A stretch of DNA of 44,545 nucleotides from Escherichia phage 6948: the sequence record OL362272.1. One strand, written 5' to 3'. The notes below the pieces were generated by a model. It did no database searches, was not told the origin of the DNA, and saw nothing but the letters and a program-made list of their open reading frames with translations. Below, in pieces: positions 1 through 44,545 of the stretch (its first letter is position 1; the number at the start of each line of letters is the position of its first letter). The translations under genes were made by a program, and so were the position numbers.

Positions 1-300
1 TTGAGCGTACACAATAAACATGCAGCTACAGAGGATGAGGTTGGCATTCTGCATGGTGCTATTACCAAAATCTTCAATAAGAAAGCACAGGCAATACTGG
101 ACACTATAGAAGAAGACCCTGATGCAGCATTACATTTAGTGTCTGGTAAGGATATTGGTGCGATGTGTAAGTGGGTTCTTGATAACGGCATTACCGCCAC
201 ACCTGCTGCACAGCAGGAAGAGTCCAAGTTATCTAAGCGCCTCAAGGCTATCCGAGAGGCATCCAGTGGTAAGATAATTCAATTCACTAAGGAGGATTGA
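1..300 (+). CDS. terminase small subunit, 3' portion (5' end lies outside the window)
   Basis: Open frame runs from window start to TGA at 298-300, overlapping the large-terminase ATG (ATGA). Assignment is by position immediately upstream of the large subunit as in T7 gene 18/19; no diagnostic motif recognised. Confidence 0.45.
   Translation: MSVHNKHAATEDEVGILHGAITKIFNKKAQAILDTIEEDPDAALHLVSGKDIGAMCKWVLDNGITATPAAQQEESKLSKRLKAIREASSGKIIQFTKED
92..114 (+). promoter_or_regulatory. phage-RNAP promoter (inside the small-terminase gene)
   Basis: CAATACTGGACACTATAGAAGAA; matches the window consensus ATTTACYGGACACTATAGAAG except at -17 to -14. Confidence 0.5.
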
Positions 301-2198
301 TGGCTAAGGCAAGAGAATCACAAGCGGAGGCTCTTGCCAGATGGGAGATGCTACAGGAGTTACAGCAGACCTTTCCTTACACAGCGGAAGGTTTGCTTCT
401 CTTTGCAGATACAGTTATTCATAACTTAATTGCAGGCAACCCTCATCTGATTCGTATGCAGGCTGATATCTTGAAGTTCCTATTTTACGGACACAAGTAC
501 CGCCTCATCGAAGCGCCTCGTGGTATCGCTAAGACAACACTATCAGCAATCTATACGGTATTCCGTATTATTCATGAACCGCATAAGCGTATCATGGTTG
601 TGTCCCAAAACGCCAAGCGAGCAGAGGAAATCGCAGGTTGGGTAGTTAAAATCTTCCGTGGCTTAGACTTTCTTGAGTTTATGCTGCCGGATATCTACGC
701 TGGGGATCGTGCATCCGTTAAGGCGTTTGAGATTCATTACACCCTACGTGGTAGTGATAAGTCTCCTTCTGTATCTTGTTACTCAATCGAAGCAGGTATG
801 CAGGGTGCTCGTGCTGATATTATTCTAGCGGATGACGTAGAGTCGATGCAGAACGCTCGTACGGCAGCGGGCCGTGCCTTGCTTGAGGAACTGACTAAGG
901 AGTTTGAATCTATCAACCAGTTTGGGGATATCATTTACCTTGGTACACCTCAGAACGTAAACTCTATCTACAACAACCTACCTGCTCGTGGTTACTCTGT
1001 TCGTATCTGGACTGCGCGTTACCCTTCAGTAGAGCAAGAGCAATGTTATGGCGACTTCCTTGCACCTATGATTGTTCAAGATATGAAGGACAACCCAGCA
1101 CTTCGCTCAGGGTACGGGTTGGATGGTAATAGTGGTGCACCTTGTGCCCCTGAAATGTATGATGATGAAGTTCTGATTGAGAAGGAAATCTCTCAGGGTG
1201 CTGCTAAGTTCCAGCTTCAGTTCATGCTTAACACTCGCATGATGGATGCTGACAGATACCCATTACGCCTGAACAATCTAATCTTCACCTCGTTTGGTAC
1301 AGAGGAAGTCCCTGTGATGCCTACGTGGAGTAATGATTCCATAAACATCATTGGTGATGCACCTAAGTATGGTAACAAGCCTACGGATTTCATGTACAGA
1401 CCTGTAGCTCGCCCATATGAATGGGGTGCTGTCTCCCGCAAGATTATGTATATTGACCCTGCGGGTGGCGGTAAGAATGGGGATGAGACGGGTGTGGCCA
1501 TCGTATTCCTGCACGGCACATTCATTTATGTGTATCAGTGCTTTGGTGTACCTGGCGGATACCGAGAATCGTCCCTGAATCGCATTGTGCAGGCCGCAAA
1601 GCAGGCGGGTGTTAAAGAGGTATTCATTGAGAAGAACTTTGGTCATGGCGCGTTTGAGGCGGTAATTAAGCCGTACTTTGAACGAGAGTGGCCTGTAACT
1701 CTGGAAGAAGATTACGCCACCGGACAGAAAGAATTGCGTATCATTGAGACGCTGGAGCCGCTCATGGCAGCCCATAGGCTTATCTTCAATGCAGAGATGG
1801 TGAAGTCAGACTTTGAGTCGGTACAGCACTATCCGCTTGAACTACGCATGTCCTACAGTCTTTTCAATCAAATGTCGAACATAACGATTGAGAAGAACAG
1901 CCTCCGGCACGATGACCGCCTAGACGCCCTGTATGGCGCTATCCGGCAATTAACTTCTCAGATAGACTATGACGAGGTTACACGGATTAATCGCCTCAGA
2001 GCGCAGGAGATGCGAGATTACATCCATGCTATGAACACACCTCATCTACGCAGGGCAATGCTATATGGGGATTACGGTACTGAGCGAAGAGTGACCAACA
2101 CTTCCGTAGCGATGCAGCAGCGAGTTTACGGGCAGAACTACCGAAATAAATCGGCAAGCAGAAATACACTTTCTGCAAGGATTTCAAGGACTTATTAA
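300..2198 (+). CDS. terminase large subunit (DNA maturase B)
   Basis: 632 aa; Walker A-like segment EAPRGIAKTT near the N-terminus, acidic nuclease-type segments (ILADDVES, MYIDPAGGG), size and position typical of T7 gp19-like terminases; RBS GGAGG before ATG 300. Confidence 0.9.
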   Translation: MAKARESQAEALARWEMLQELQQTFPYTAEGLLLFADTVIHNLIAGNPHLIRMQADILKFLFYGHKYRLIEAPRGIAKTTLSAIYTVFRIIHEPHKRIMVVSQNAKRAEEIAGWVVKIFRGLDFLEFMLPDIYAGDRASVKAFEIHYTLRGSDKSPSVSCYSIEAGMQGARADIILADDVESMQNARTAAGRALLEELTKEFESINQFGDIIYLGTPQNVNSIYNNLPARGYSVRIWTARYPSVEQEQCYGDFLAPMIVQDMKDNPALRSGYGLDGNSGAPCAPEMYDDEVLIEKEISQGAAKFQLQFMLNTRMMDADRYPLRLNNLIFTSFGTEEVPVMPTWSNDSINIIGDAPKYGNKPTDFMYRPVARPYEWGAVSRKIMYIDPAGGGKNGDETGVAIVFLHGTFIYVYQCFGVPGGYRESSLNRIVQAAKQAGVKEVFIEKNFGHGAFEAVIKPYFEREWPVTLEEDYATGQKELRIIETLEPLMAAHRLIFNAEMVKSDFESVQHYPLELRMSYSLFNQMSNITIEKNSLRHDDRLDALYGAIRQLTSQIDYDEVTRINRLRAQEMRDYIHAMNTPHLRRAMLYGDYGTERRVTNTSVAMQQRVYGQNYRNKSASRNTLSARISRTY

Positions 2199-2219
2199 TT
2201 ACTGGACACTATAGAAGGA
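2197..2219 (+). promoter_or_regulatory. phage-RNAP promoter after the terminase gene
   Basis: AATTACTGGACACTATAGAAGGA. Confidence 0.7.
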
Positions 2220-2362: not shown

Positions 2363-2641
2363 ATGGCTAATGATTATAGTAGTCAACCATTAACAGGTAA
2401 GTCTAAGAGAAAGCAGGTACAACCTGTAAGTGAAGAACTAATGCTTCCGGTAATCAAAAAAGAGGAAGCTAGTAAGAAAAGCAATGTCATTAATGATGCC
2501 ACCAAATCAGGTAAACAGAAAGGGGCCATGGTGTGCCTTGAAGTGGAAGGTGGTGTATTGAAGATTGCTATCGCGGTTGATGGCAAAGAAGATTCAGAGT
2601 GGAAGTTAGTAACAGTGGAACCAGCTGTTAACCCAGTTTAA
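2363..2641 (+). CDS. hypothetical protein, tandem paralog A
   Basis: 92 aa, RBS AGGAGAGAG upstream; shares the block SGKQKGAMVxLE...IAxA with the next ORF. Confidence 0.5.
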   Translation: MANDYSSQPLTGKSKRKQVQPVSEELMLPVIKKEEASKKSNVINDATKSGKQKGAMVCLEVEGGVLKIAIAVDGKEDSEWKLVTVEPAVNPV

Positions 2642-2659
2642 GATAAGGAGGAAGATTAC

Positions 2660-2950
2660 ATGGCTAAATATGGTACTACAGGTTCTGTTACTGGTCAAGC
2701 TTTTCGAGTAAAAGCAGTACAAACTATTGCAACGGCGATCCCGATGCCTGTTGTTAAAGAAGCAGACCTTAAGAAGAAAGACCACCCTATCAACATCAAA
2801 CATTTATCAGGTAAACAGAAAGGTGCAATGGTTGCTCTTGAGAAAACTGACACAACTCTGCATATTGCTGTTGCACGTGGCAGTGAACCAACAGACCCAT
2901 GGGATGTAACTGGTATGGAAGAGGACGCTGTTACTCCAGCAGGGGAATAA
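2660..2950 (+). CDS. hypothetical protein, tandem paralog B
   Basis: 96 aa, RBS AAGGAGG upstream; shares SGKQKGAMVALE...HIAVA block with 2363-2641. Confidence 0.5.
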   Translation: MAKYGTTGSVTGQAFRVKAVQTIATAIPMPVVKEADLKKKDHPINIKHLSGKQKGAMVALEKTDTTLHIAVARGSEPTDPWDVTGMEEDAVTPAGE

Positions 2951-2952
2951 TA

Positions 2953-3297
2953 ATGCTTAATAAATACTTCAAGCGTAAAGAGTTTGCTTGCCGTTGTGGG
3001 TGCGGTACATCCACTGTTGATGCTGAATTACTACAGGTAGTCACAGATGTGCGTGAGCACTTTGGTTCTCCTGTAGTTATCACTTCGGGTCACCGCTGTG
3101 CTAAGCACAATGCTAATGTAGGAGGAGCTAAGAACTCCATGCATCTTACTGGTAAGGCTGCTGACATTAAGGTGTCTGGTGTTGGCCCAATGGAGGTACG
3201 TGCATACCTCTGCAATAAATACCATGATAAGTACGGTATTGGTGCTTATCCTACTTTTACCCATATCGACGTTAGAGATAACAAAGCAAGATGGTAA
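2953..3297 (+). CDS. endolysin, peptidase M15-type (zinc D-Ala-D-Ala carboxypeptidase / L-Ala-D-Glu peptidase fold)
   Basis: 114 aa from ATG 2953 (MLNKYFKRKEF...); motifs SGHRCxxHN, MHLTGKAADI, FTHIDV match the His/Asp zinc site of M15 peptidases. Confidence 0.8.
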   Translation: MLNKYFKRKEFACRCGCGTSTVDAELLQVVTDVREHFGSPVVITSGHRCAKHNANVGGAKNSMHLTGKAADIKVSGVGPMEVRAYLCNKYHDKYGIGAYPTFTHIDVRDNKARW

Positions 3298-3405
3298 GAT
3301 GCATTGAATGGTGTGAACGCATGGTTGCTAAGGCTTCAGAGGAAGGTAATTATGAAGATTGGCAGAACTACTCAACTTTATTAGCACAATGGAAAGGGAG
3401 GTGCA

Positions 3406-3555
3406 ATGAAAAAGCTGTTCAAATCTAAGAAGGTTGTAGGTGCACTAGTTGCATTGGCAATTGCTCTTGTTTCTGTAGGTCTTGGTGTAGACCTTGGCTC
3501 TGGCACGGAATCCTCTGTGACAGATGTGGTCTGCCAAGTGATCACCTGTGAATAA
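3406..3555 (+). CDS. small single-TM membrane protein, possible lysis accessory
   Basis: 49 aa, RBS GGGAGG 8 nt upstream; basic N-terminus then hydrophobic helix VVGALVALAIALVSVGLGV; absent from the ORF track because <60 aa. Confidence 0.35.
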   Translation: MKKLFKSKKVVGALVALAIALVSVGLGVDLGSGTESSVTDVVCQVITCE

Positions 3556-3769
3556 GTTTCTAGAAGTTCTGGCAGGTCTTATTGGCCTGCTTGTCTCTGC
3601 TAAGAAGAAACAAGAAGAGAAGGAGGCACAAAGTGAAGCGAATCATGTTAGTGACAACCCTTCTGATTGGTTCGCTGACCACTTCCGGGTGTCAGCAGGC
3701 GTTACCAGAGAAAGCAATGGTGAAACCCCTGAGGCCGACGCTGACGGCAGTTTACGAGGTAGACGATAA
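3548..3769 (+). CDS. putative i-spanin (Rz-like)
   Basis: 73 aa, GTG start overlapping the previous stop; N-terminal hydrophobic helix FLEVLAGLIGLLVSA then charged region; the o-spanin-like frame is partly embedded in it. Short for an Rz, so tentative. Confidence 0.35.
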   Translation: MNKFLEVLAGLIGLLVSAKKKQEEKEAQSEANHVSDNPSDWFADHFRVSAGVTRESNGETPEADADGSLRGRR

Positions 3770-3842
3770 GGTCTGCTTTAGTAAGCCTGACGCTACAAAA
3801 CTTGGTTTGTACATTCTCTCGCTAGAACGCGGATACAATTAA
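3633..3842 (+). CDS. putative o-spanin (Rz1-like outer-membrane lipoprotein)
   Basis: GTG start with AGGAGG 8 nt upstream; signal peptide KRIMLVTTLLIGSLTTSGC with lipobox LTTSG|C, Pro-containing short mature part; overlapped arrangement with the preceding frame is typical of Rz/Rz1. Confidence 0.55.
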   Translation: MKRIMLVTTLLIGSLTTSGCQQALPEKAMVKPLRPTLTAVYEVDDKVCFSKPDATKLGLYILSLERGYN

Positions 3843-3871
3843 TACATAGCTTTATGTATCAGTGTCTTACG

Positions 3872-3894
3872 ATTTACTGGACACTATAGAAGAG
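3872..3894 (+). promoter_or_regulatory. phage-RNAP promoter upstream of tailspike 1
   Basis: ATTTACTGGACACTATAGAAGAG. Confidence 0.75.
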
Positions 3895-3973
3895 GTAAGA
3901 TAGCGCCGTTCTTTTGAGCGGCCTATTACTAGCCAATCTTCATAGGGAGGGTTGGAAAGTAATAGGAGATAGC

Positions 3974-5872
3974 ATGGCTAAATTAACCAAACCTAATACT
4001 GAAGGAATCTTGCATAAAGGACAATCTTTGTATGAGTACCTTGATGCGAGAGTTTTAACATCAAAGCCGTTTGGTGCTGCAGGTGACGCCACTACTGATG
4101 ATACGGAGGTTATAGCTGCTTCATTAAACTCTCAGAAAGCTGTCACAGTCTCAGACGGTGTATTCTCTAGCTCTGGTATTAATAGTAATTACTGTAACTT
4201 AGACGGCAGGGGTAGTGGCGTGCTAAGTCACCGTTCAAGTACAGGTAACTACTTAGTATTTAACAATCTACGTGCAGGTCGCTTAAGTAATATTACGGTA
4301 GAAAGTAATAAGGCGACTGATACAACTCAGGGACAGCAGGTATCCCTTGCTGGTGGAAGTGATGTTACTGTAAGTGACGTTAACTTCTCAAACGTTAAAG
4401 GTACTGGTTTCAGTTTAATCGCATACCCTAATGATGCGCCACCGGATGGACTTATGATTAAAGGCATTCGAGGTAGCTATTCCGGCTATGCTACTAATAA
4501 GGCAGCCGGATGCGTACTTGCTGACTCCTCAGTTAACTCCCTCATAGATAACGTCATTGCTAAGAACTACCCTCAGTTCGGAGCAGTAGAGTTGAAAGGT
4601 ACAGCCAGTTACAACATAGTCAGTAATGTTATAGGGGCAGATTGCCAGCATGTAACTTACAACGGCACTGAAGGGCCAATAGCTCCTTCTAATAACCTTA
4701 TCAATGGGGTGATGGCTAATAACCCTAAGTATGCAGCGGTTGTTGCAGGCAAAGGGAGTACTAACTTAATCTCAGACGTGCTCGTAGATTACTCAACTTC
4801 TGATGCTAGGCAGGCTCATGGTGTTACCGTAGAGGGATCTGATAACGTCATAAATAATGTGCTTATGTCAGGATGTGATGGTACTAACTCTTTAGGACAA
4901 GGGCAGACTGCTACAATTGCACGCTTTATAGGTACAGCTAATAACAACTATGCGTCTGTATTTCCTAGCTACAGTGCTACAGGTGTTATTACTTTCGAAT
5001 CCGGCTCTACCCGTAACTTCGTAGAGGTAAAGCACCCTGGCAGGAGAAACGACATTCTCAGTTCTGCTAGTACTATTGACGGTGCAGCTACTATTGACGG
5101 CACTAATAATAGTAACGTAGTGCACGCACCTGCCTTAGGGCAGTACATAGGTAGTATGTCAGGTAGGTTCGAATGGCGGATTAAGTCCATGTCACTCCCT
5201 TCAGGTGTTCTTACTTCTGCTGATAAGTACAGAATGCTTGGAGATGGTGCTGTGTCATTAGCTGTAGGTGGGGGCACTTCTTCTCAAGTTCGCCTATTTA
5301 CTTCTGATGGTACTTCTCGGACAGTGTCCATCACCAACGGTAACGTGCGTCTTTCTACCAGTAGCACAGGCTATTTGCAGTTAGGTGCTGATGCAATGAC
5401 CCCAGATAGTACTGGTACATACGCATTAGGTTCCGCCAGTCGAGCATGGTCTGGCGGTTTTACTCAAGCAGCATTCACTGTTACCTCAGATGCTCGGTGT
5501 AAAACAGAACCTCTTACTATCTCAGATGCATTACTAGATGCTTGGTCTGAAGTTGACTTTGTGCAGTTTCAGTATTTGGATCGTGTTGAGGAGAAGGGTG
5601 CAGACTCAGCTAGATGGCACTTCGGTATCATCGCTCAGCGAGCTAAGGATGCCTTCGAACGTCACGGTATAGATGCACATCGCTATGGCTTCTTGTGCTT
5701 CGACAGTTGGGATGATGTATACGAGGAAGATGCCAATGGCTCTCGTAAACTGATTACACCAGCAGGTTCCCGCTACGGTATTCGTTACGAGGAAGCACTG
5801 ATATTAGAGGCTGCGTTGATGCGGCGGACTATTAAGCGTATGCAGGAAGCACTAGCTTCCCTGCCTAAGTAA
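3974..5872 (+). CDS. tailspike 1: beta-helix capsule depolymerase with C-terminal intramolecular chaperone (peptidase S74-like) domain
   Basis: 632 aa from ATG 3974 (RBS AGGAG); Ser/Thr/Gly/Asn-rich beta-helix-like repeats; C-terminus TVTS-DARCK...LDAWSEVDFVQFQYLDR...WHFGIIAQ matches the autoproteolytic chaperone module of endosialidase/K5-lyase-type tailspikes. Confidence 0.85.
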   Translation: MAKLTKPNTEGILHKGQSLYEYLDARVLTSKPFGAAGDATTDDTEVIAASLNSQKAVTVSDGVFSSSGINSNYCNLDGRGSGVLSHRSSTGNYLVFNNLRAGRLSNITVESNKATDTTQGQQVSLAGGSDVTVSDVNFSNVKGTGFSLIAYPNDAPPDGLMIKGIRGSYSGYATNKAAGCVLADSSVNSLIDNVIAKNYPQFGAVELKGTASYNIVSNVIGADCQHVTYNGTEGPIAPSNNLINGVMANNPKYAAVVAGKGSTNLISDVLVDYSTSDARQAHGVTVEGSDNVINNVLMSGCDGTNSLGQGQTATIARFIGTANNNYASVFPSYSATGVITFESGSTRNFVEVKHPGRRNDILSSASTIDGAATIDGTNNSNVVHAPALGQYIGSMSGRFEWRIKSMSLPSGVLTSADKYRMLGDGAVSLAVGGGTSSQVRLFTSDGTSRTVSITNGNVRLSTSSTGYLQLGADAMTPDSTGTYALGSASRAWSGGFTQAAFTVTSDARCKTEPLTISDALLDAWSEVDFVQFQYLDRVEEKGADSARWHFGIIAQRAKDAFERHGIDAHRYGFLCFDSWDDVYEEDANGSRKLITPAGSRYGIRYEEALILEAALMRRTIKRMQEALASLPK

Positions 5873-5958: not shown

Positions 5959-7671
5959 ATGCTTCAAAGATTAAGTGCTTACTTGGTGAAGTACAAGAGT
6001 AAACTAACAGGTACTATTGAGCGCCTGCTATCTGATAAACTATCGGATACAATAGATGTTGCGGATTTTGGAGTTACTCCATCTTCCAATGACAACAGGC
6101 AAGCACTTCAAGCTGCGTTCAATGCAGTCAGAGTGTTAGGCGGTGGCACTGTATTAGTCACTAAAGCTGGAAAATACAAACTCAGTGGTACTGTTGAGAT
6201 ATTTGCTAATACACACTTCAAGGTGGCTAAAGGTGTAACATTTGTACGTGACTACGAAACAGGAGATACGCTATTCAGATTATCACAAGGGCAAGCTAGT
6301 AATGTAACAGTCAGTGGAGGTATCTATGAAGGCAATGGTCACACTAAGGGAGATACACCTTTTGTAGTATTTGCATCTACTAGTAATAATGATTTGAAGT
6401 TTGAAGGCATAACAGTTAACAATGTAGTGGACTACCACGCCATAGATTTAGCAGATTGGAACAACGTAGTTATTCGTGATTGTAAATTCCTAGGTTTTAA
6501 GAATACAGGCAGTCGTAACTTCTCAGAGGCTATACAGTTAGACCCAGGTCTTATTACAGTTGGTCACTATGTACAGTCAAGTGGTATGCTGGTGGAGAAT
6601 TGCTATGCTGGTCCAAACACAGAATCAGGGTTTGGAGGTTATGGTGCACTAATTGGAAATCACGCCTCAGCTTACGGTGTACAGGACAACAATATCCGTA
6701 TCTTGAATTGCACTACAGATGGTGCTCTCTTTGCAGGTGTACGTGTATTTAACTGGAAAAACTGGACAGTGCGTGGTTGCACATTTAGGAACTCTAATGC
6801 AAGAGGTGTCCATGTTACACCTGTCTCATCTCAGACTAAACCGCAGGGTACTCGACAAGGTAGTATTGTAGATTGCACTTTTGATGGCGTAAGGACACCA
6901 GTGCTAATTGCTGCACCATCTTGGCCTTTTACCGATATTAGTGACATTTGGCATGACCATATTGAAATTTCTAATAATACTATGATCCTCACAGAGGATG
7001 TATCCTATGGTGTAGATGCAAGGTGGTGTAAGAATTTAATTGTAAAAGGTAATACAGGCTCTGGTGGCTTAGGGTTAATCGGTTTACGCTTTGGGACAAA
7101 ATACCACATCGAAGGTAATACTTGGGAAAACGGAAGAGGTAGTGGGATTTGGTTAGGTGAGTCTGATGCTACTACATTCATTGGTACTGGTTTATCAGGA
7201 GAAGGTATACTTAGTCGTAATATCTTCTCTAAATTAGGGCAATATGGTATTCATGTAAACTGCAAGGCTAGCTGTCTAGTGATTAAAGCCAATAATATGA
7301 AGGAAGTATCTACAGCTGAAGCAGGTAGGCACTTCATTAGTATAGACACAGGGGCTAACAACATCCTAGTAGAAGGTAATATTGGAGTAGACGGAGAAAG
7401 CCCTAACAAGCCAAGCCTTGGTATTCGTGTTACTTCTTCTTGTTCCAATATTAAACTCATTGGCAATGATTGCTATGGCACACAGGCGCCTCAGAATAAC
7501 CAAGGAGTTGGTTCTAGTACGGTGATTGTTTATGGGCTAAATGGCAACCCTACAACTTTAGGCGTAGGTGCACCTGTAGGCTCTTTAGCAACTGATATCA
7601 ATGGTTCTGGTGGTAGTACATTGTACGTTAAAGAATCTGGTACATCTGCTCAAGGTTGGGTTGCAAAGTAG
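5959..7671 (+). CDS. tailspike 2: pectate-lyase-like right-handed beta-helix depolymerase
   Basis: 570 aa, RBS AAAGGAGG; N-terminal DVADFGVTPSSNDNRQALQAAF...GGGTVLV resembles the start of pectate-lyase-3/GH28-like phage depolymerases; repetitive NxxVxG/GN turns. Confidence 0.75.
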   Translation: MLQRLSAYLVKYKSKLTGTIERLLSDKLSDTIDVADFGVTPSSNDNRQALQAAFNAVRVLGGGTVLVTKAGKYKLSGTVEIFANTHFKVAKGVTFVRDYETGDTLFRLSQGQASNVTVSGGIYEGNGHTKGDTPFVVFASTSNNDLKFEGITVNNVVDYHAIDLADWNNVVIRDCKFLGFKNTGSRNFSEAIQLDPGLITVGHYVQSSGMLVENCYAGPNTESGFGGYGALIGNHASAYGVQDNNIRILNCTTDGALFAGVRVFNWKNWTVRGCTFRNSNARGVHVTPVSSQTKPQGTRQGSIVDCTFDGVRTPVLIAAPSWPFTDISDIWHDHIEISNNTMILTEDVSYGVDARWCKNLIVKGNTGSGGLGLIGLRFGTKYHIEGNTWENGRGSGIWLGESDATTFIGTGLSGEGILSRNIFSKLGQYGIHVNCKASCLVIKANNMKEVSTAEAGRHFISIDTGANNILVEGNIGVDGESPNKPSLGIRVTSSCSNIKLIGNDCYGTQAPQNNQGVGSSTVIVYGLNGNPTTLGVGAPVGSLATDINGSGGSTLYVKESGTSAQGWVAK

Positions 7672-14190: not shown

Positions 14191-14213
14191 ATTTACCGGA
14201 CACTATAGGATAG
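14191..14213 (+). promoter_or_regulatory. phage-RNAP promoter downstream of the RNAP gene (first of a tandem pair)
   Basis: ATTTACCGGACACTATAGGATAG. Confidence 0.7.
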
Positions 14214-42958: not shown

Positions 42959-43920
42959 TGAGTTATACTTTCACAGAACATATAGCCAACGGTACGCAAG
43001 TAACCTATCCCTTTAGATTTGCTGGCAGGGATAAAGGCTATCTTCGTGCCTCAGATGTGATAGTGGAATCTCTTCAAGGTAACACTTGGATTGAGGTTAC
43101 ATCTGGCTGGCAACTAACTGGCACGCACCAGATTACTTTTGATGTAGCACCAGTTGCAGGTTTGAAGTTCCGTATTCGAAGGGAAGTACAAAAGGAGTAT
43201 CCATACGCTGAGTTTGACCGTGGTGTTACCTTGGATATGAAGTCTTTAAATGGTTCTTTCATTCATATACTGGAGATTACACAGGAGTTACTTGACGGGT
43301 TTTATCCAGAAGGATACTTCATTAAACAGAATGTAAGCTGGGGCGGCAATAAGATTACTGATTTGGCTGATGGCACAAATCCGGGAGATGCAGTAAATAA
43401 AGGGCAGCTTGATGCCATCGACAAGAAGCATACAGATTGGAACGCCAAACAGGACATTGAGATTGCTGGCCTTAAGGCTGGTATGACTTCTGGTATTGCG
43501 CACAGAACTGTTCCTTGGTACACGATAGCCAAAGGTGGTGAGATTTCCGTAAAACCACCTTATGAATTTCAAGATGCACTAGTTTTCCTTAATGGGGTGT
43601 TGCAGCACCAAATTGTAGGCGCATACTCTATAAGCAACAACACTATCACTTTCGCAGAGCCGCTTGTGGCTGGTACAGAGGTGTATGTGCTGATTGGTAG
43701 TCGTGTGGCTACATCTGAACCTAATATTCAGTTAGAGTTGAACTTTGACTTAGTAGAAGGCCAACAAGTAGTACAGATTGGCTCTGCATTTAAGTACATT
43801 GAGGTCTACCTTGATGGATTATTACAACCTAAACTTGCTTATCAGGTAGACGGTGACATTGTTACTTTCTCAGAGGGAGTGCCAGAATGCCGGATGACTG
43901 CTAAGATTATCACAGCATAA
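42958..43920 (+). CDS. tail-fibre adaptor protein (T7 gp17 N-terminal-domain-like)
   Basis: 320 aa; short tail-fibre-like protein lacking a receptor-binding distal domain, consistent with an adaptor that docks separate tailspikes. Confidence 0.65.
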   Translation: MSYTFTEHIANGTQVTYPFRFAGRDKGYLRASDVIVESLQGNTWIEVTSGWQLTGTHQITFDVAPVAGLKFRIRREVQKEYPYAEFDRGVTLDMKSLNGSFIHILEITQELLDGFYPEGYFIKQNVSWGGNKITDLADGTNPGDAVNKGQLDAIDKKHTDWNAKQDIEIAGLKAGMTSGIAHRTVPWYTIAKGGEISVKPPYEFQDALVFLNGVLQHQIVGAYSISNNTITFAEPLVAGTEVYVLIGSRVATSEPNIQLELNFDLVEGQQVVQIGSAFKYIEVYLDGLLQPKLAYQVDGDIVTFSEGVPECRMTAKIITA

Positions 43921-43929
43921 GGAGGTAGG

Positions 43930-44154
43930 ATGATTAACTCCGAACTGGTAGATAGTGGTGTGAAGCTTGCGCCACCTGCACTCGTATCAGGTGGGTACTT
44001 CCTCGGTATCAGTTGGGATAACTGGCTCGTAATTATGACCCTTATTTACACAGTAATGCAAATGGGTTGGTTTATTTATGAGAAAGTCCAGACTATAAAG
44101 AAGAGGAGAAAAGCTAAATGTACTCAGAAGTTGAAAGAGCAGGGTACATCATAA
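43930..44154 (+). CDS. holin (gp17.5-like)
   Basis: 74 aa, RBS AAGGAGG; one TM helix (WLVIMTLIYTVMQMGWFIY) and basic C-terminus KKRRKAK; position after the fibre adaptor. Confidence 0.6.
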   Translation: MINSELVDSGVKLAPPALVSGGYFLGISWDNWLVIMTLIYTVMQMGWFIYEKVQTIKKRRKAKCTQKLKEQGTS

Positions 44155-44545
44155 GAGAAGATGGTGTTATCTTGAGCAAGAAGGGACAACCGATGGTTGG
44201 TGCTATTCGTGAAAGAGGATACCGCACAGTAACATTAAGGATAGATAATAAATCCAAGACTTATAAAGTACACAGGTTGATTGCATGGAAGCATGTGCCG
44301 AACCCTCATAACTATAAGGTTGTTAACCATAAAGACCGCAACCCATCTAATTGCCATAAAGATAACCTAGAGTGGTGCACTCAACAGGAAAACACTATAC
44401 ATGCACACTATGGTTGTCTTGACATACAAGATAAAATAGATGAAGCCAAAGCATTAAGAAGCCAAGGCTGGTCTTATCCTAAAATCGGTAAATACTTTGG
44501 GTTAGACCATAAGACTGTTTGGTATTGGATTAATGGGAGAAGAAC
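44118..44545 (+). CDS. HNH homing endonuclease (3' end outside the window)
   Basis: ATG 44118, open to window end; HRLIAW...VNHKDRNPSNCHKDNLEWCTQQENTIH is an HNH-type motif; start overlaps the holin 3' end in another frame. Confidence 0.7.
   Translation, partial: MYSEVERAGYIIREDGVILSKKGQPMVGAIRERGYRTVTLRIDNKSKTYKVHRLIAWKHVPNPHNYKVVNHKDRNPSNCHKDNLEWCTQQENTIHAHYGCLDIQDKIDEAKALRSQGWSYPKIGKYFGLDHKTVWYWINGRR

What the first reader, a model, noticed from the sequence alone, without database searches (positions are those of the whole stretch)
2953..3842. Split lysis cassette: endolysin and spanins after terminase, holin 41 kb away
An M15 peptidase endolysin, a 49-aa single-TM protein and an overlapped Rz/Rz1-like pair sit after the terminase gene, while the holin-like gene is at 43930. 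The o-spanin candidate has a clean lipobox (LTTSG|C). The 49-aa membrane protein could be a second holin/antiholin or a pinholin-like element. The endolysin has no signal sequence, so it probably depends on the distant holin.
Basis: partly seen in the sequence, partly recalled or inferred. Interest (0 to 1): 0.4.

Follow-up and report, generated by a model that had tools for sequence, protein, structure and literature searches.

The report
Standard K1-5-type phage lysis genes
This is the ordinary, already catalogued set of host-lysis genes of a K1-5/SP6-like E. coli phage; the "41 kb" gap to the holin arises only because the genome is written starting at the terminase gene, and the real open point is which tiny protein partners the outer-membrane lipoprotein.

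Summary
The ORFs are real and sit where stated. They are an M15 peptidase endolysin (2953-3297), a 49-aa single-TM protein (3406-3555), a 73-aa ORF (3548-3769) and a 69-aa lipoprotein that overlaps it by 137 nt (3633-3842, lipobox TSG|C).

The window is a whole Vectrevirus (K1-5-like) genome written starting at terS. In the native order the T7-type holin (43930-44154) lies 3,343 nt upstream of the endolysin, not 41 kb. The order is holin, HNH, terS, terL, two paralogues, endolysin.

This separated layout is conserved and published for SP6-like phages. Kongari 2018 lists the 49-aa and 69-aa proteins as a "separated" spanin pair, flagged "too small / too short". For UAB_Phi78 the same paper uses the 73-aa homologue as an overlapped i-spanin.

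My comparisons show the 73-aa ORF is a genuine conserved gene. It has coding periodicity and ATG starts in distant relatives. However, its hydrophobic helix is too short for a conserved TMD and its C-terminal tail is unconstrained, so it is a poor Rz. The 49-aa protein is a robust type-II membrane protein with a conserved CxxxxC tail, and it is the better lipoprotein partner.

None of these proteins has been tested experimentally. Low novelty.

The parts
43930..44154 (+). T7-type (gp17.5-like) holin, 74 aa. In the native gene order it lies 3,343 nt upstream of the endolysin.
   Evidence: Pfam Phage_holin_2_2 E 5.6e-19 and phrog_920. The position is the same in K1-5, LL11, SP6 and EC120. The C-terminus differs from K1-5 and SP6 from about residue 46.
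2200..2217 (+). K1-5-type phage RNA-polymerase promoter core, immediately after the terL stop codon. It heads the block that runs from the two paralogues through the endolysin to the lipoprotein.
   Evidence: Exact match to TACTGGACACTATAGAAG. There are 10 matches in the window against 0.05 expected by chance.
2953..3297 (+). Endolysin: a zinc peptidase of the M15_3 family, 114 aa, with no signal or SAR sequence.
   Evidence: Pfam PF08291 E 3e-33 over the full profile; phrog_894 E 3e-45. Weak PDB match to the 1lbu zinc D-Ala-D-Ala carboxypeptidase, E 7e-5. KD19 maximum is 0.71.
3291..3428 (+). p45: a small conserved ORF of 45 aa with a CxxWC motif. It overlaps the endolysin stop by 7 nt and the p49 start by 23 nt. 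Its function is unknown.
   Evidence: phrog_1312 E 4e-18. It is syntenic in 31 of the 33 comparison loci; Klebsiella L031 and L032 gave no tblastn match although their records annotate an ORF in that slot, and PP1 (L033) lacks it. Codon-position entropy is 0.62/0.46/1.00. LL11 and L009 carry in-frame stops.
3406..3555 (+). p49: a type-II (N-in, C-out) single-TMD protein. It has a basic N-terminus MKKLFKSKK, a 19-residue TMD, and an approximately 21-residue periplasmic tail ending VTDVVCQVITCE. It is the best i-spanin candidate.
   Evidence: KD19 is at least 1.94 in 97 of 97 family members, and 87 of 97 have two Cys in the tail. Coding periodicity is 0.46/0.32/1.18. It is listed as the K1-5/K1E/SP6 i-spanin, marked 'Too small?', in the Kongari 2018 supplement. 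PHROG and RefSeq label it 'holin'.
3548..3769 (+). p73: a conserved gene that starts with GTG inside the last codons of p49, has no SD, and is probably translationally coupled to p49. It consists of a hydrophobic N-terminal helix, a charged helix, a DNPxDWFxDHFRV motif, and an unconstrained tail. Its role is unknown.
   Evidence: phrog_9219 E 2e-31. The stretch 3556-3632 shows codon periodicity 0.63/0.26/1.02, p=4e-5. Distant relatives have ATG starts. From 3693 onward, periodicity follows only the p69 frame, and stop positions vary, giving 61-73 aa. AF2 predicts helix 3-35, helix 38-45 and a disordered tail.
3633..3842 (+). [quoted passage not shown] Signal peptide MKRIMLVTTLLIGSLTTSG|C; the mature protein is 50 aa, made of a flexible Pro-rich linker and a beta-beta-alpha mini-domain with one Cys.
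   Evidence: phrog_8971 'Rz-like spanin' E 2e-38. Lipobox in 69 of 77 members, D never at +2, and one extra Cys in 68 of the 69 lipobox-bearing members (two in the other). AF2 pLDDT is 93-96 for residues 40-65. Listed as the K1-5 o-spanin in Kongari 2018.
3875..3892 (+). K1-5-type phage promoter core that closes the block, upstream of the tailspike gene.
   Evidence: Exact match.

Best explanation
The region is the normal late lysis block of a Vectrevirus (K1-5-like Autographiviridae) genome.

Gene order:
- A T7-type holin lies just upstream of the terminase genes.
- After terL and a phage promoter come two small paralogues, then a tightly overlapping run of five genes: endolysin, p45, p49, p73 and p69.

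Inferred mechanism, from what is known of the families:
- The holin opens the inner membrane at a set time.
- This releases the cytoplasmic, signal-less M15 zinc peptidase, which cuts peptidoglycan cross-links.
- The outer membrane is then breached by a very small spanin-like pair. One member is p49, anchored in the inner membrane with a roughly 21-residue Cys-bearing periplasmic tail. The other is the 50-residue mature lipoprotein p69, tethered to the outer membrane.

Status of the remaining genes:
- p73 is a genuine, translationally coupled gene whose conserved motif is encoded in the same DNA as the p69 signal peptide.
- p73 does not look like an integral inner-membrane spanin subunit, and its role is unknown.

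Shown here: gene identities, true gene order, conservation, coding status, lipobox, and hydropathy consistent with a TMD.
Inferred only: all functional steps involving p49, p73 and p69.
For: Genome identity and gene order:
- Megablast gives 93-98% identity to K1-5-like phages.
- The annotated order in K1-5, LL11, SP6 and EC120 is holin, terS, terL, two paralogues, endolysin, 49 aa, lipoprotein.
- EC120 is contiguous across the window junction, and the native genome end maps to window 8306.

Families: M15_3 at E 3e-33; T7 holin at E 5.6e-19; PHROG families for every small ORF.

Synteny:
- p49, p73 and p69 are all present in 32 of the 33 comparison loci, spanning Vectrevirus, Zindervirus, Acadevirus and Klebsiella phages. 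The exception, Pectobacterium PP1 (L033), has only a p49-like ORF.
- They are also kept in six further phages: ECBP5, PP99, Reminis, JSF38, an Edwardsiella phage and Nufs112. In these the endolysin gene is a different, longer one; it is annotated as a lytic murein transglycosylase in three of the six records.

p49 compared with p73:
- p49 has a TMD in 97 of 97 family members and a CxxxxC tail in 87 of 97.
- p73 reaches the KD19 threshold in only 3 of 69 members, has no Cys, and has an unconstrained tail.
- p69 carries one conserved extra Cys.
- The ICP3/VP4 vibriophage 'i-spanin' resembles p49 by eye, including the basic N-terminus, the GVDL motif and the CxxxxC tail. It is followed directly by an unrelated lipoprotein, with no p73.

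Literature:
- Kongari 2018 lists p49 and p69 as a separated spanin pair.
- Lee 2015 describes the 'separated position' of lysis genes as conserved in SP6-like phages.
Against: - p49 and p69 together offer only about 71 periplasmic residues and have no predicted coiled coil. The curators themselves marked them 'Too small?' and 'Too short'.
- The same census chose the p73 homologue as the i-spanin in UAB_Phi78.
- The overlapped p73/p69 gene layout is the classic Rz/Rz1 layout.
- RefSeq and PHROGs label p49 'holin'.
- Pectobacterium phage PP1 keeps a p49-like gene that lacks Cys, and has no p69.
- I found no experiment on any of these three proteins.
Confidence: 0.6

Rival explanations
1. p73 and p69 are the real two-component spanin, an overlapped Rz/Rz1-type pair. 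p49 would then be something else.
For: - The 137-nt out-of-frame overlap is the typical spanin gene architecture. Kongari 2018 counts 228 overlapped and 182 embedded systems among 528 two-component ones.
- The same census used the p73 homologue as the UAB_Phi78 i-spanin.
- The authors of Pantoea phage Nufs112 annotate the pair as Rz-like and Rz1-like.
- p73 has an N-terminal hydrophobic helix followed by a charged helix.
- By the same crude dG scale, the accepted T7 i-spanin is also marginal at +4.3.
Against: - The apolar run is only 6-12 residues in most family members and is interrupted by D, K, R or E in the Proteus, Gajwadongvirus and Edwardsiella homologues.
- KD19 reaches 1.6 in only 3 of 69 members, and dG is +6.5 to +11.3 kcal/mol.
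- The C-terminal third is the end that contacts the o-spanin in lambda Rz. Here it shows no constraint in the p73 frame and is cut by stops at different places.
- p73 has no periplasmic Cys, although p69 keeps one.
- No family member longer than 77 aa looks like a full-length Rz.
Confidence: 0.2
2. p49 is a second holin, pinholin or antiholin that tunes lysis timing, and p69 acts alone or with another partner.
For: - phrog_4712 and RefSeq name it 'holin'.
- It is a single TMD rich in small-xxx-small motifs, with a highly basic cytoplasmic N-terminus.
- A p49-like gene persists in PP1 without p69.
Against: - The 'holin' name is annotation only, and no test was found.
- A canonical T7-type holin is already present.
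- The most conserved part of p49 is the periplasmic CxxxxC tail, not the TMD.
- p49 is followed by an OM lipoprotein gene in both the SP6-like phages and the ICP3-like vibriophages.
Confidence: 0.12
3. p49, p73 and p69 work as one three-part module that disrupts the outer membrane by a route other than a periplasm-spanning coiled-coil bridge.
For: - All three are kept together, overlapping or coupled, across several genera, and even when the endolysin gene differs.
- The pair alone is flagged as too short.
- The p73 motif and the p69 signal peptide share DNA that is constrained at all three codon positions, with mean entropy 0.355 against 0.64-0.79 in the adjacent p73-only and tail/linker stretches (the p69 domain stretch is 0.43).
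Against: - Linkage of overlapping genes is partly automatic.
- ICP3-type phages have a p49 homologue and a lipoprotein without p73.
- There is no direct evidence of any interaction.
Confidence: 0.08

Closest known systems
Lysis genes of coliphage K1-5, K1E and Salmonella phage SP6 (genes 43-45 in K1-5; holin upstream of terS)
   Same: The gene order and spacing are the same. Protein identities to K1-5 are about 88% for the endolysin, 98% for p49, 97% for p73 and 99% for p69.
   Different: This genome carries an HNH endonuclease between the holin and terS, and the holin has a different C-terminus of 74 aa against 64 aa. The endolysin allele is mosaic: 98% identity to L006 but 86-88% to K1-5 and EC120.
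Lambda Rz/Rz1 and T7 gp18.5/gp18.7 two-component spanins
   Same: There is an inner-membrane partner and an OM lipoprotein encoded next to the endolysin. The lipoprotein has a lipobox, no Asp at +2, and a conserved periplasmic Cys. An out-of-frame overlapping gene pair (p73/p69) is present.
   Different: The periplasmic parts are far shorter: 21 + 50 residues, against roughly 130 + 40 in lambda by my recollection. No coiled coil is predicted. The overlapping partner (p73) lacks a convincing TMD. No sequence or Pfam similarity was found.
T7 lysis gene layout (holin 17.5 before gene 18)
   Same: The holin belongs to the same Pfam family and sits immediately before the small terminase gene, apart from the peptidoglycan hydrolase (T7 gene order from general knowledge).
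   Different: In T7 the spanins lie between the terminase genes and the amidase is a class II gene. Here the endolysin is an M15 peptidase, and it and the spanin candidates follow terL.
ICP3/VP4 vibriophage 'separated' mini-spanins (Kongari 2018)
   Same: The 47-aa i-spanin candidate MWYKKKRFVAAIVTAALVALGALAGVDLSG...ACGIVECVQ resembles p49 by eye, and is also flagged 'Too small?'.
   Different: The downstream lipoprotein is unrelated to p69 and has no extra Cys. There is no p73 equivalent.

Membership tests
Peptidase M15_3 phage endolysin | Full-length match to the Pfam PF08291 profile above the gathering score | tested here: met
   114.6 bits against a 23.2-bit cut-off, covering profile positions 1-108 of 108.
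Peptidase M15_3 phage endolysin | Peptidoglycan-cleaving activity and bond specificity | not testable with these tools
   Only a weak sequence link to the 1lbu zinc D-Ala-D-Ala carboxypeptidase, E 7e-5.
Canonical (holin-dependent) endolysin, as opposed to SAR or secreted | No N-terminal signal or SAR hydrophobic segment | tested here: met
   Maximum KD19 is 0.71. The N-terminus MLNKYFKRKEFACRCG is polar.
T7-type holin (Phage_holin_2_2) | Profile match above the gathering score, and position before terS | tested here: met
   68 bits against a 25.4-bit cut-off. Same position as in K1-5, SP6 and LL11.
o-spanin (OM lipoprotein subunit) | Signal peptide with a lipobox, Cys at +1, and no Asp at +2 (so Lol sorting goes to the OM) | tested here: met
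   TSG|C with Q at +2. A lipobox is present in 69 of 77 family members, and D never occurs at +2.
o-spanin (OM lipoprotein subunit) | Encoded in the lysis cassette next to, or overlapping, an i-spanin gene | tested here: met
   It lies 77 nt after p49 and overlaps p73 by 137 nt. The endolysin is 336 nt upstream.
o-spanin (OM lipoprotein subunit) | Required for outer-membrane disruption; complex formation with the i-spanin | not testable with these tools
   No experimental report was found.
i-spanin - candidate p49 | N-terminal TMD with N-in, C-out topology | tested here: met
   KD19 is 2.64, dG is -1.2 kcal/mol, and there are five Lys before the TMD. A TMD is present in 97 of 97 relatives. The topology is inferred from the positive-inside rule.
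i-spanin - candidate p49 | Periplasmic domain long enough, typically helical or coiled-coil, to reach the o-spanin across the periplasm | tested here: not met
   The tail is about 21 residues. The total with p69 is 71 residues, flagged 'Too short' by the curators.
i-spanin - candidate p73 | N-terminal TMD | tested here: not met
   KD19 reaches 1.6 in only 3 of 69 members. The apolar run is 6-12 residues in most members. dG is +6.5 to +11.3 kcal/mol. These are crude scales; TMHMM and Phobius were not available.
i-spanin - candidate p73 | Conserved C-terminal end that contacts the o-spanin | tested here: not met
   There is no purifying-selection signal in the p73 frame from 3693 onward, and stop positions vary.
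Holin / pinholin - candidate p49 | Membrane-permeabilising or lysis-timing activity | not testable with these tools
   Only database labels support this (phrog_4712, RefSeq 'holin').

The most novel reading that the evidence does not exclude
The conserved p49-p73-p69 trio may be a distinct, minimal outer-membrane-disruption system. The inner-membrane and lipoprotein parts are too short to form a classical periplasm-spanning coiled-coil spanin. A third, dual-coded, non-membrane-spanning protein (p73) would be an obligatory component or regulator.
Probability: 0.15. Interest if true: 0.55.

Novelty: already known. Interest (0 to 1): 0.2.

Why it matters
The finding as stated does not matter much. 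The arrangement is the published norm for SP6/K1-5-like phages, and its striking element, the 41 kb gap, is an artefact.

The residual value is practical.
- Public annotation of these three small genes is contradictory. p49 is called 'holin' in RefSeq, 'i-spanin' in LL11, Premi and SP6, or hypothetical.
- The SP6 record puts the 'o-spanin' label on the p73 homologue rather than on the lipoprotein.
- K1-5-like phages are used in phage therapy and as depolymerase sources, so a correct lysis-gene map is useful.
- Whether a 21 + 50-residue pair can act as a spanin is an open question. The spanin curators raised it themselves, and it could be tested easily in E. coli.

Tried and rejected
- Pfam gave nothing for p45, p49, p73 or p69 at E < 0.1.
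- Profile searches of 5.8 billion proteins with p73, p69 and p49 alignments found only same-sized relatives. The complete contigs among them are about 44-46 kb, i.e. phage-genome-sized. No longer Rz-like relative turned up, and no functional names beyond 'O-spanin'.
- A Foldseek search of the p69 model against viral structures hit only its own family.
- A PDB sequence search with the endolysin gave only a weak hit to 1lbu.
- Five literature searches found no experimental work on K1-5 or SP6 genes 44 and 45. The only functional study, on KBNP1315, tested the holin and a secreted endolysin described as related to a soluble lytic transglycosylase, not the small proteins.
- I could not run a complex prediction for p49, p73 and p69.
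- I considered a u-spanin reading for p69. I rejected it because the C-terminal hydrophobic stretch LGLYILSL is only 8 residues and is predicted as part of a small beta-beta-alpha domain.
- The sigma-70 promoter and terminator scan was at background level.

Full report
**What the window is.**
- Megablast of 2600-4000 finds 117 phage records. The best are 93-98% identical Escherichia phages of the genus Vectrevirus (K1-5, LL11, VEc3, 6949).
- The window is about one genome length, 44,545 bp.
- It starts exactly at the small terminase gene. Window 1-300 is Pfam DNA_Packaging_2 at E 3e-16, and 297-2198 is the T7-type large terminase.
- Phage EC120 (ON185580.1) is colinear across the window's end-to-start junction. 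EC120 34900-35743 matches window 43702-44545 at 99.5%, and 35744-36044 matches window 1-301.
- The right physical ends of the K1-5 and EC120 records both map to window about 8306.
- So the window is a rotated copy of a linear genome, and its ends are not biological ends.

**The 41 kb.**
- In native order the genes run: tail fibre; holin (43930-44154); HNH endonuclease (44118-44545 plus 1-4); terS; terL; promoter; two paralogues; endolysin.
- The holin stop is 3,343 nt from the endolysin start.
- K1-5, LL11 and SP6 show the same order without the HNH gene. EC120 carries this HNH ORF, unannotated, plus a second HNH between terS and terL.
- Lee et al. 2015 (PMC4640515) already describe the 'separated position' of holin, endolysin, Rz and Rz1 as conserved among SP6-like phages.
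- The cassette is therefore split only by the terminase genes, much as the T7 holin sits before gene 18. This is a known family trait.

**Transcription context.**
- The K1-5-type promoter core TACTGGACACTATAGAAG occurs 10 times, against 0.05 expected by chance.
- Three of these are at 95, at 2200 (two bases after the terL stop) and at 3875.
- The genes from 2363 to 3842 therefore lie between two phage promoters.

**The proteins.**
- The endolysin (2953-3297) matches Peptidase_M15_3 over the whole profile, E 3e-33. It has no hydrophobic N-terminus.
- ORF 43930-44154 is a T7-family holin, E 5.6e-19.
- Four small ORFs follow the endolysin and overlap one another:
  - p45, 3291-3428
  - p49, 3406-3555
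  - p73, 3548-3769
  - p69, 3633-3842
- Each has its own PHROG family.
- p69 starts at a GTG 6 nt after AGGAGG. SP6 has ATG at the same place.

**Are they real genes?**
- I compared 33 loci: GenBank relatives plus 21 IMG/VR loci. All four ORFs are syntenic in Vectrevirus, Zindervirus, Acadevirus and Klebsiella phages.
- p49, p73 and p69 are all present in 32 of the 33; Pectobacterium PP1 has only a p49-like ORF. tblastn found no p45 match in PP1 or in two Klebsiella loci, although those two records annotate an ORF in that slot.
- The four ORFs are also kept in ECBP5, PP99, Ralstonia phage Reminis, Vibrio phage JSF38, an Edwardsiella phage and Pantoea phage Nufs112. In these the gene in the endolysin position is a different, longer one. 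It is annotated as a lytic murein transglycosylase in three of the six records.
- Column entropy by codon position across 31 distinct sequences shows coding periodicity:

| Region | Codon positions 1 / 2 / 3 | Source |
|---|---|---|
| p49 | 0.46 / 0.32 / 1.18 | |
| p69-only part | 0.37 / 0.08 / 0.82 | |
| p45 | 0.62 / 0.46 / 1.00 | |
| 3556-3632 ('intergenic'), p73 frame | 0.63 / 0.26 / 1.02 | |

- For the 3556-3632 stretch, the Mann-Whitney p is 4e-5 in the p73 frame and non-significant in the other two frames.
- Distant relatives start p73 with an ATG abutting the p49 stop.
- So p73 is a genuine gene.
- Where the p73 motif DNPxDWFxDHFRV shares DNA with the p69 signal peptide (3633-3692), all three codon positions are constrained. 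Mean entropy there is 0.355, against 0.64-0.79 in the adjacent p73-only and tail/linker stretches; the p69 domain stretch is 0.43.
- From 3693 onward the periodicity follows only the p69 frame (p = 0.004), and p73 stop codons wander, giving 61-73 aa.

**Which protein partners the lipoprotein?**
- p69 has a lipobox in 69 of 77 family members. Seven of the others are gene calls truncated at an internal Met and one (P0145) is an aberrant 120-aa call. Asp never occurs at +2, and 68 of the 69 lipobox-bearing members have one further Cys (one has two).
- AF2 predicts for p69 a flexible linker and a confident beta-beta-alpha mini-domain, pLDDT 93-96.
- p49 has a strong TMD in 97 of 97 relatives. Its basic N-terminus implies an N-in orientation. 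Its conserved tail ends in CxxxxC in 87 of 97.
- p73 reaches the usual hydropathy threshold in only 3 of 69 relatives, and its apolar run is 6-12 residues in most.
- Homologues of p73 carry D, K, R or E inside that run, for example LLEVLAILLRAIER.
- p73 has no Cys, and AF2 gives one long helix, a short helix and a disordered tail.
- These are crude scales. My from-memory T7 gp18.5 N-terminus also scores marginally (+4.3), so the TMD test for p73 is negative but not final.

**Literature.**
- Kongari et al. 2018 (PMC6139136) list K1-5, K1E and SP6 as 'separated' two-component spanins.
- Their i-spanin is the 49-aa gene 44 ('Too small? ... only 20 pp residues'). Their o-spanin is the 69-aa protein. 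The total of 71 periplasmic residues is marked 'Too short'.
- In the same paper, UAB_Phi78 is scored 'overlapped', with a 69-aa i-spanin, which is the p73 homologue.
- The LL11 announcement reports 'a separated spanin pair'.
- The ICP3/VP4 vibriophage 47-aa 'i-spanin' in that supplement resembles p49 by eye. It is followed by an unrelated lipoprotein and no p73.
- Public labels disagree. RefSeq calls p49 'holin'. The SP6 record AY288927.2 puts 'o-spanin' on the p73 homologue and leaves the true lipoprotein ORF unannotated.
- I found no experimental test of p49, p73 or p69. KBNP1315 work covered only the holin and a secreted endolysin described as related to a soluble lytic transglycosylase.

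**Verdict.**
- The sequence features are real, but the headline is an artefact and the arrangement is already catalogued.
- The most likely working model has three steps:
  1. The T7-type holin releases the cytoplasmic M15 endolysin.
  2. The endolysin degrades peptidoglycan.
  3. p49 and p69 act as an unusually small spanin-like pair.
- p73 is a conserved, probably translationally coupled accessory of unknown role.
- The alternative, that p73/p69 is the overlapped Rz/Rz1 equivalent, is weaker but not excluded.
- Interest is low. The only open question, whether so short a pair can work as a spanin and what p73 does, was raised by the spanin curators in 2018 and needs bench work.

Noticed in passing
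window 44118-44545 continuing into 1-4: A 143-aa HNH_3 homing-endonuclease ORF (Pfam E 5e-9, plus an HTH) is inserted between the holin and terS. It overlaps the holin 3' end by 37 nt. The holin here is 74 aa, with a C-terminus unlike the 64-65-aa K1-5 and SP6 holins from about residue 46. EC120 and ULINTec4 share the insertion; K1-5 and SP6 lack it.
   Followed up: partly
window 2363-2641 and 2660-2950: Two tandem paralogous small genes (92 and 96 aa) carry the database label 'acetyl-CoA acetyltransferase' (phrog_2725). They have no Pfam match at all, and the name looks like propagated misannotation. Relatives have two to four copies.
   Followed up: partly
window 3291-3428: p45 is a small conserved ORF with a CxxWC motif, wedged between the endolysin and p49 and overlapping both. 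It shows coding periodicity, yet it carries in-frame stop codons in LL11 and in one IMG/VR genome (L009). It may be dispensable, or those may be sequencing errors.
   Followed up: partly
window 95, 2200, 3875, 16712, 21653, 22116, 23262, 31554 (and weaker matches at 14194, 26392): Ten copies of the K1-5-type phage RNA-polymerase promoter core TACTGGACACTATAGAAG, against 0.05 expected by chance. One lies inside terS. A stem-loop at 2291-2310 follows the promoter at 2200.
   Followed up: no
window 3974-5872 and 5959-7671: Two tailspike genes follow the lysis block. The first has a C-terminal Peptidase_S74 intramolecular chaperone domain; LL11 annotates its counterpart as identical to K5 lyase. 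The second is a right-handed beta-helix protein. This is the dual-tailspike arrangement typical of K1-5-like phages.
   Followed up: no
L004 (SP6 AY288927.2) 4826-5023 versus 4890-5099: The current SP6 GenBank record labels the p73 homologue (gene 48) as 'o-spanin'. The ORF that actually encodes the lipoprotein (MKQIWLAMTLLIGSLTISGC...) is not annotated.
   Followed up: yes
L033 (Pectobacterium phage PP1) 1370-1486 and 1855-1992: PP1 keeps a p49-like 45-aa gene without the two Cys and has no p73 or p69. A different, very small lipoprotein ORF (MRKIILALALCFSLSG|C..., mature about 22 aa) lies just upstream of its endolysin and is unannotated.
   Followed up: no
L003 (EC120) compared with window 2953-3842: The lysis block is mosaic. 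EC120 is 99.5% identical to the window across the holin region, and its p49 is identical. Its endolysin is only 86% identical in protein and its p69 90%. An IMG/VR fragment (L006) has a 98% identical endolysin.
   Followed up: no
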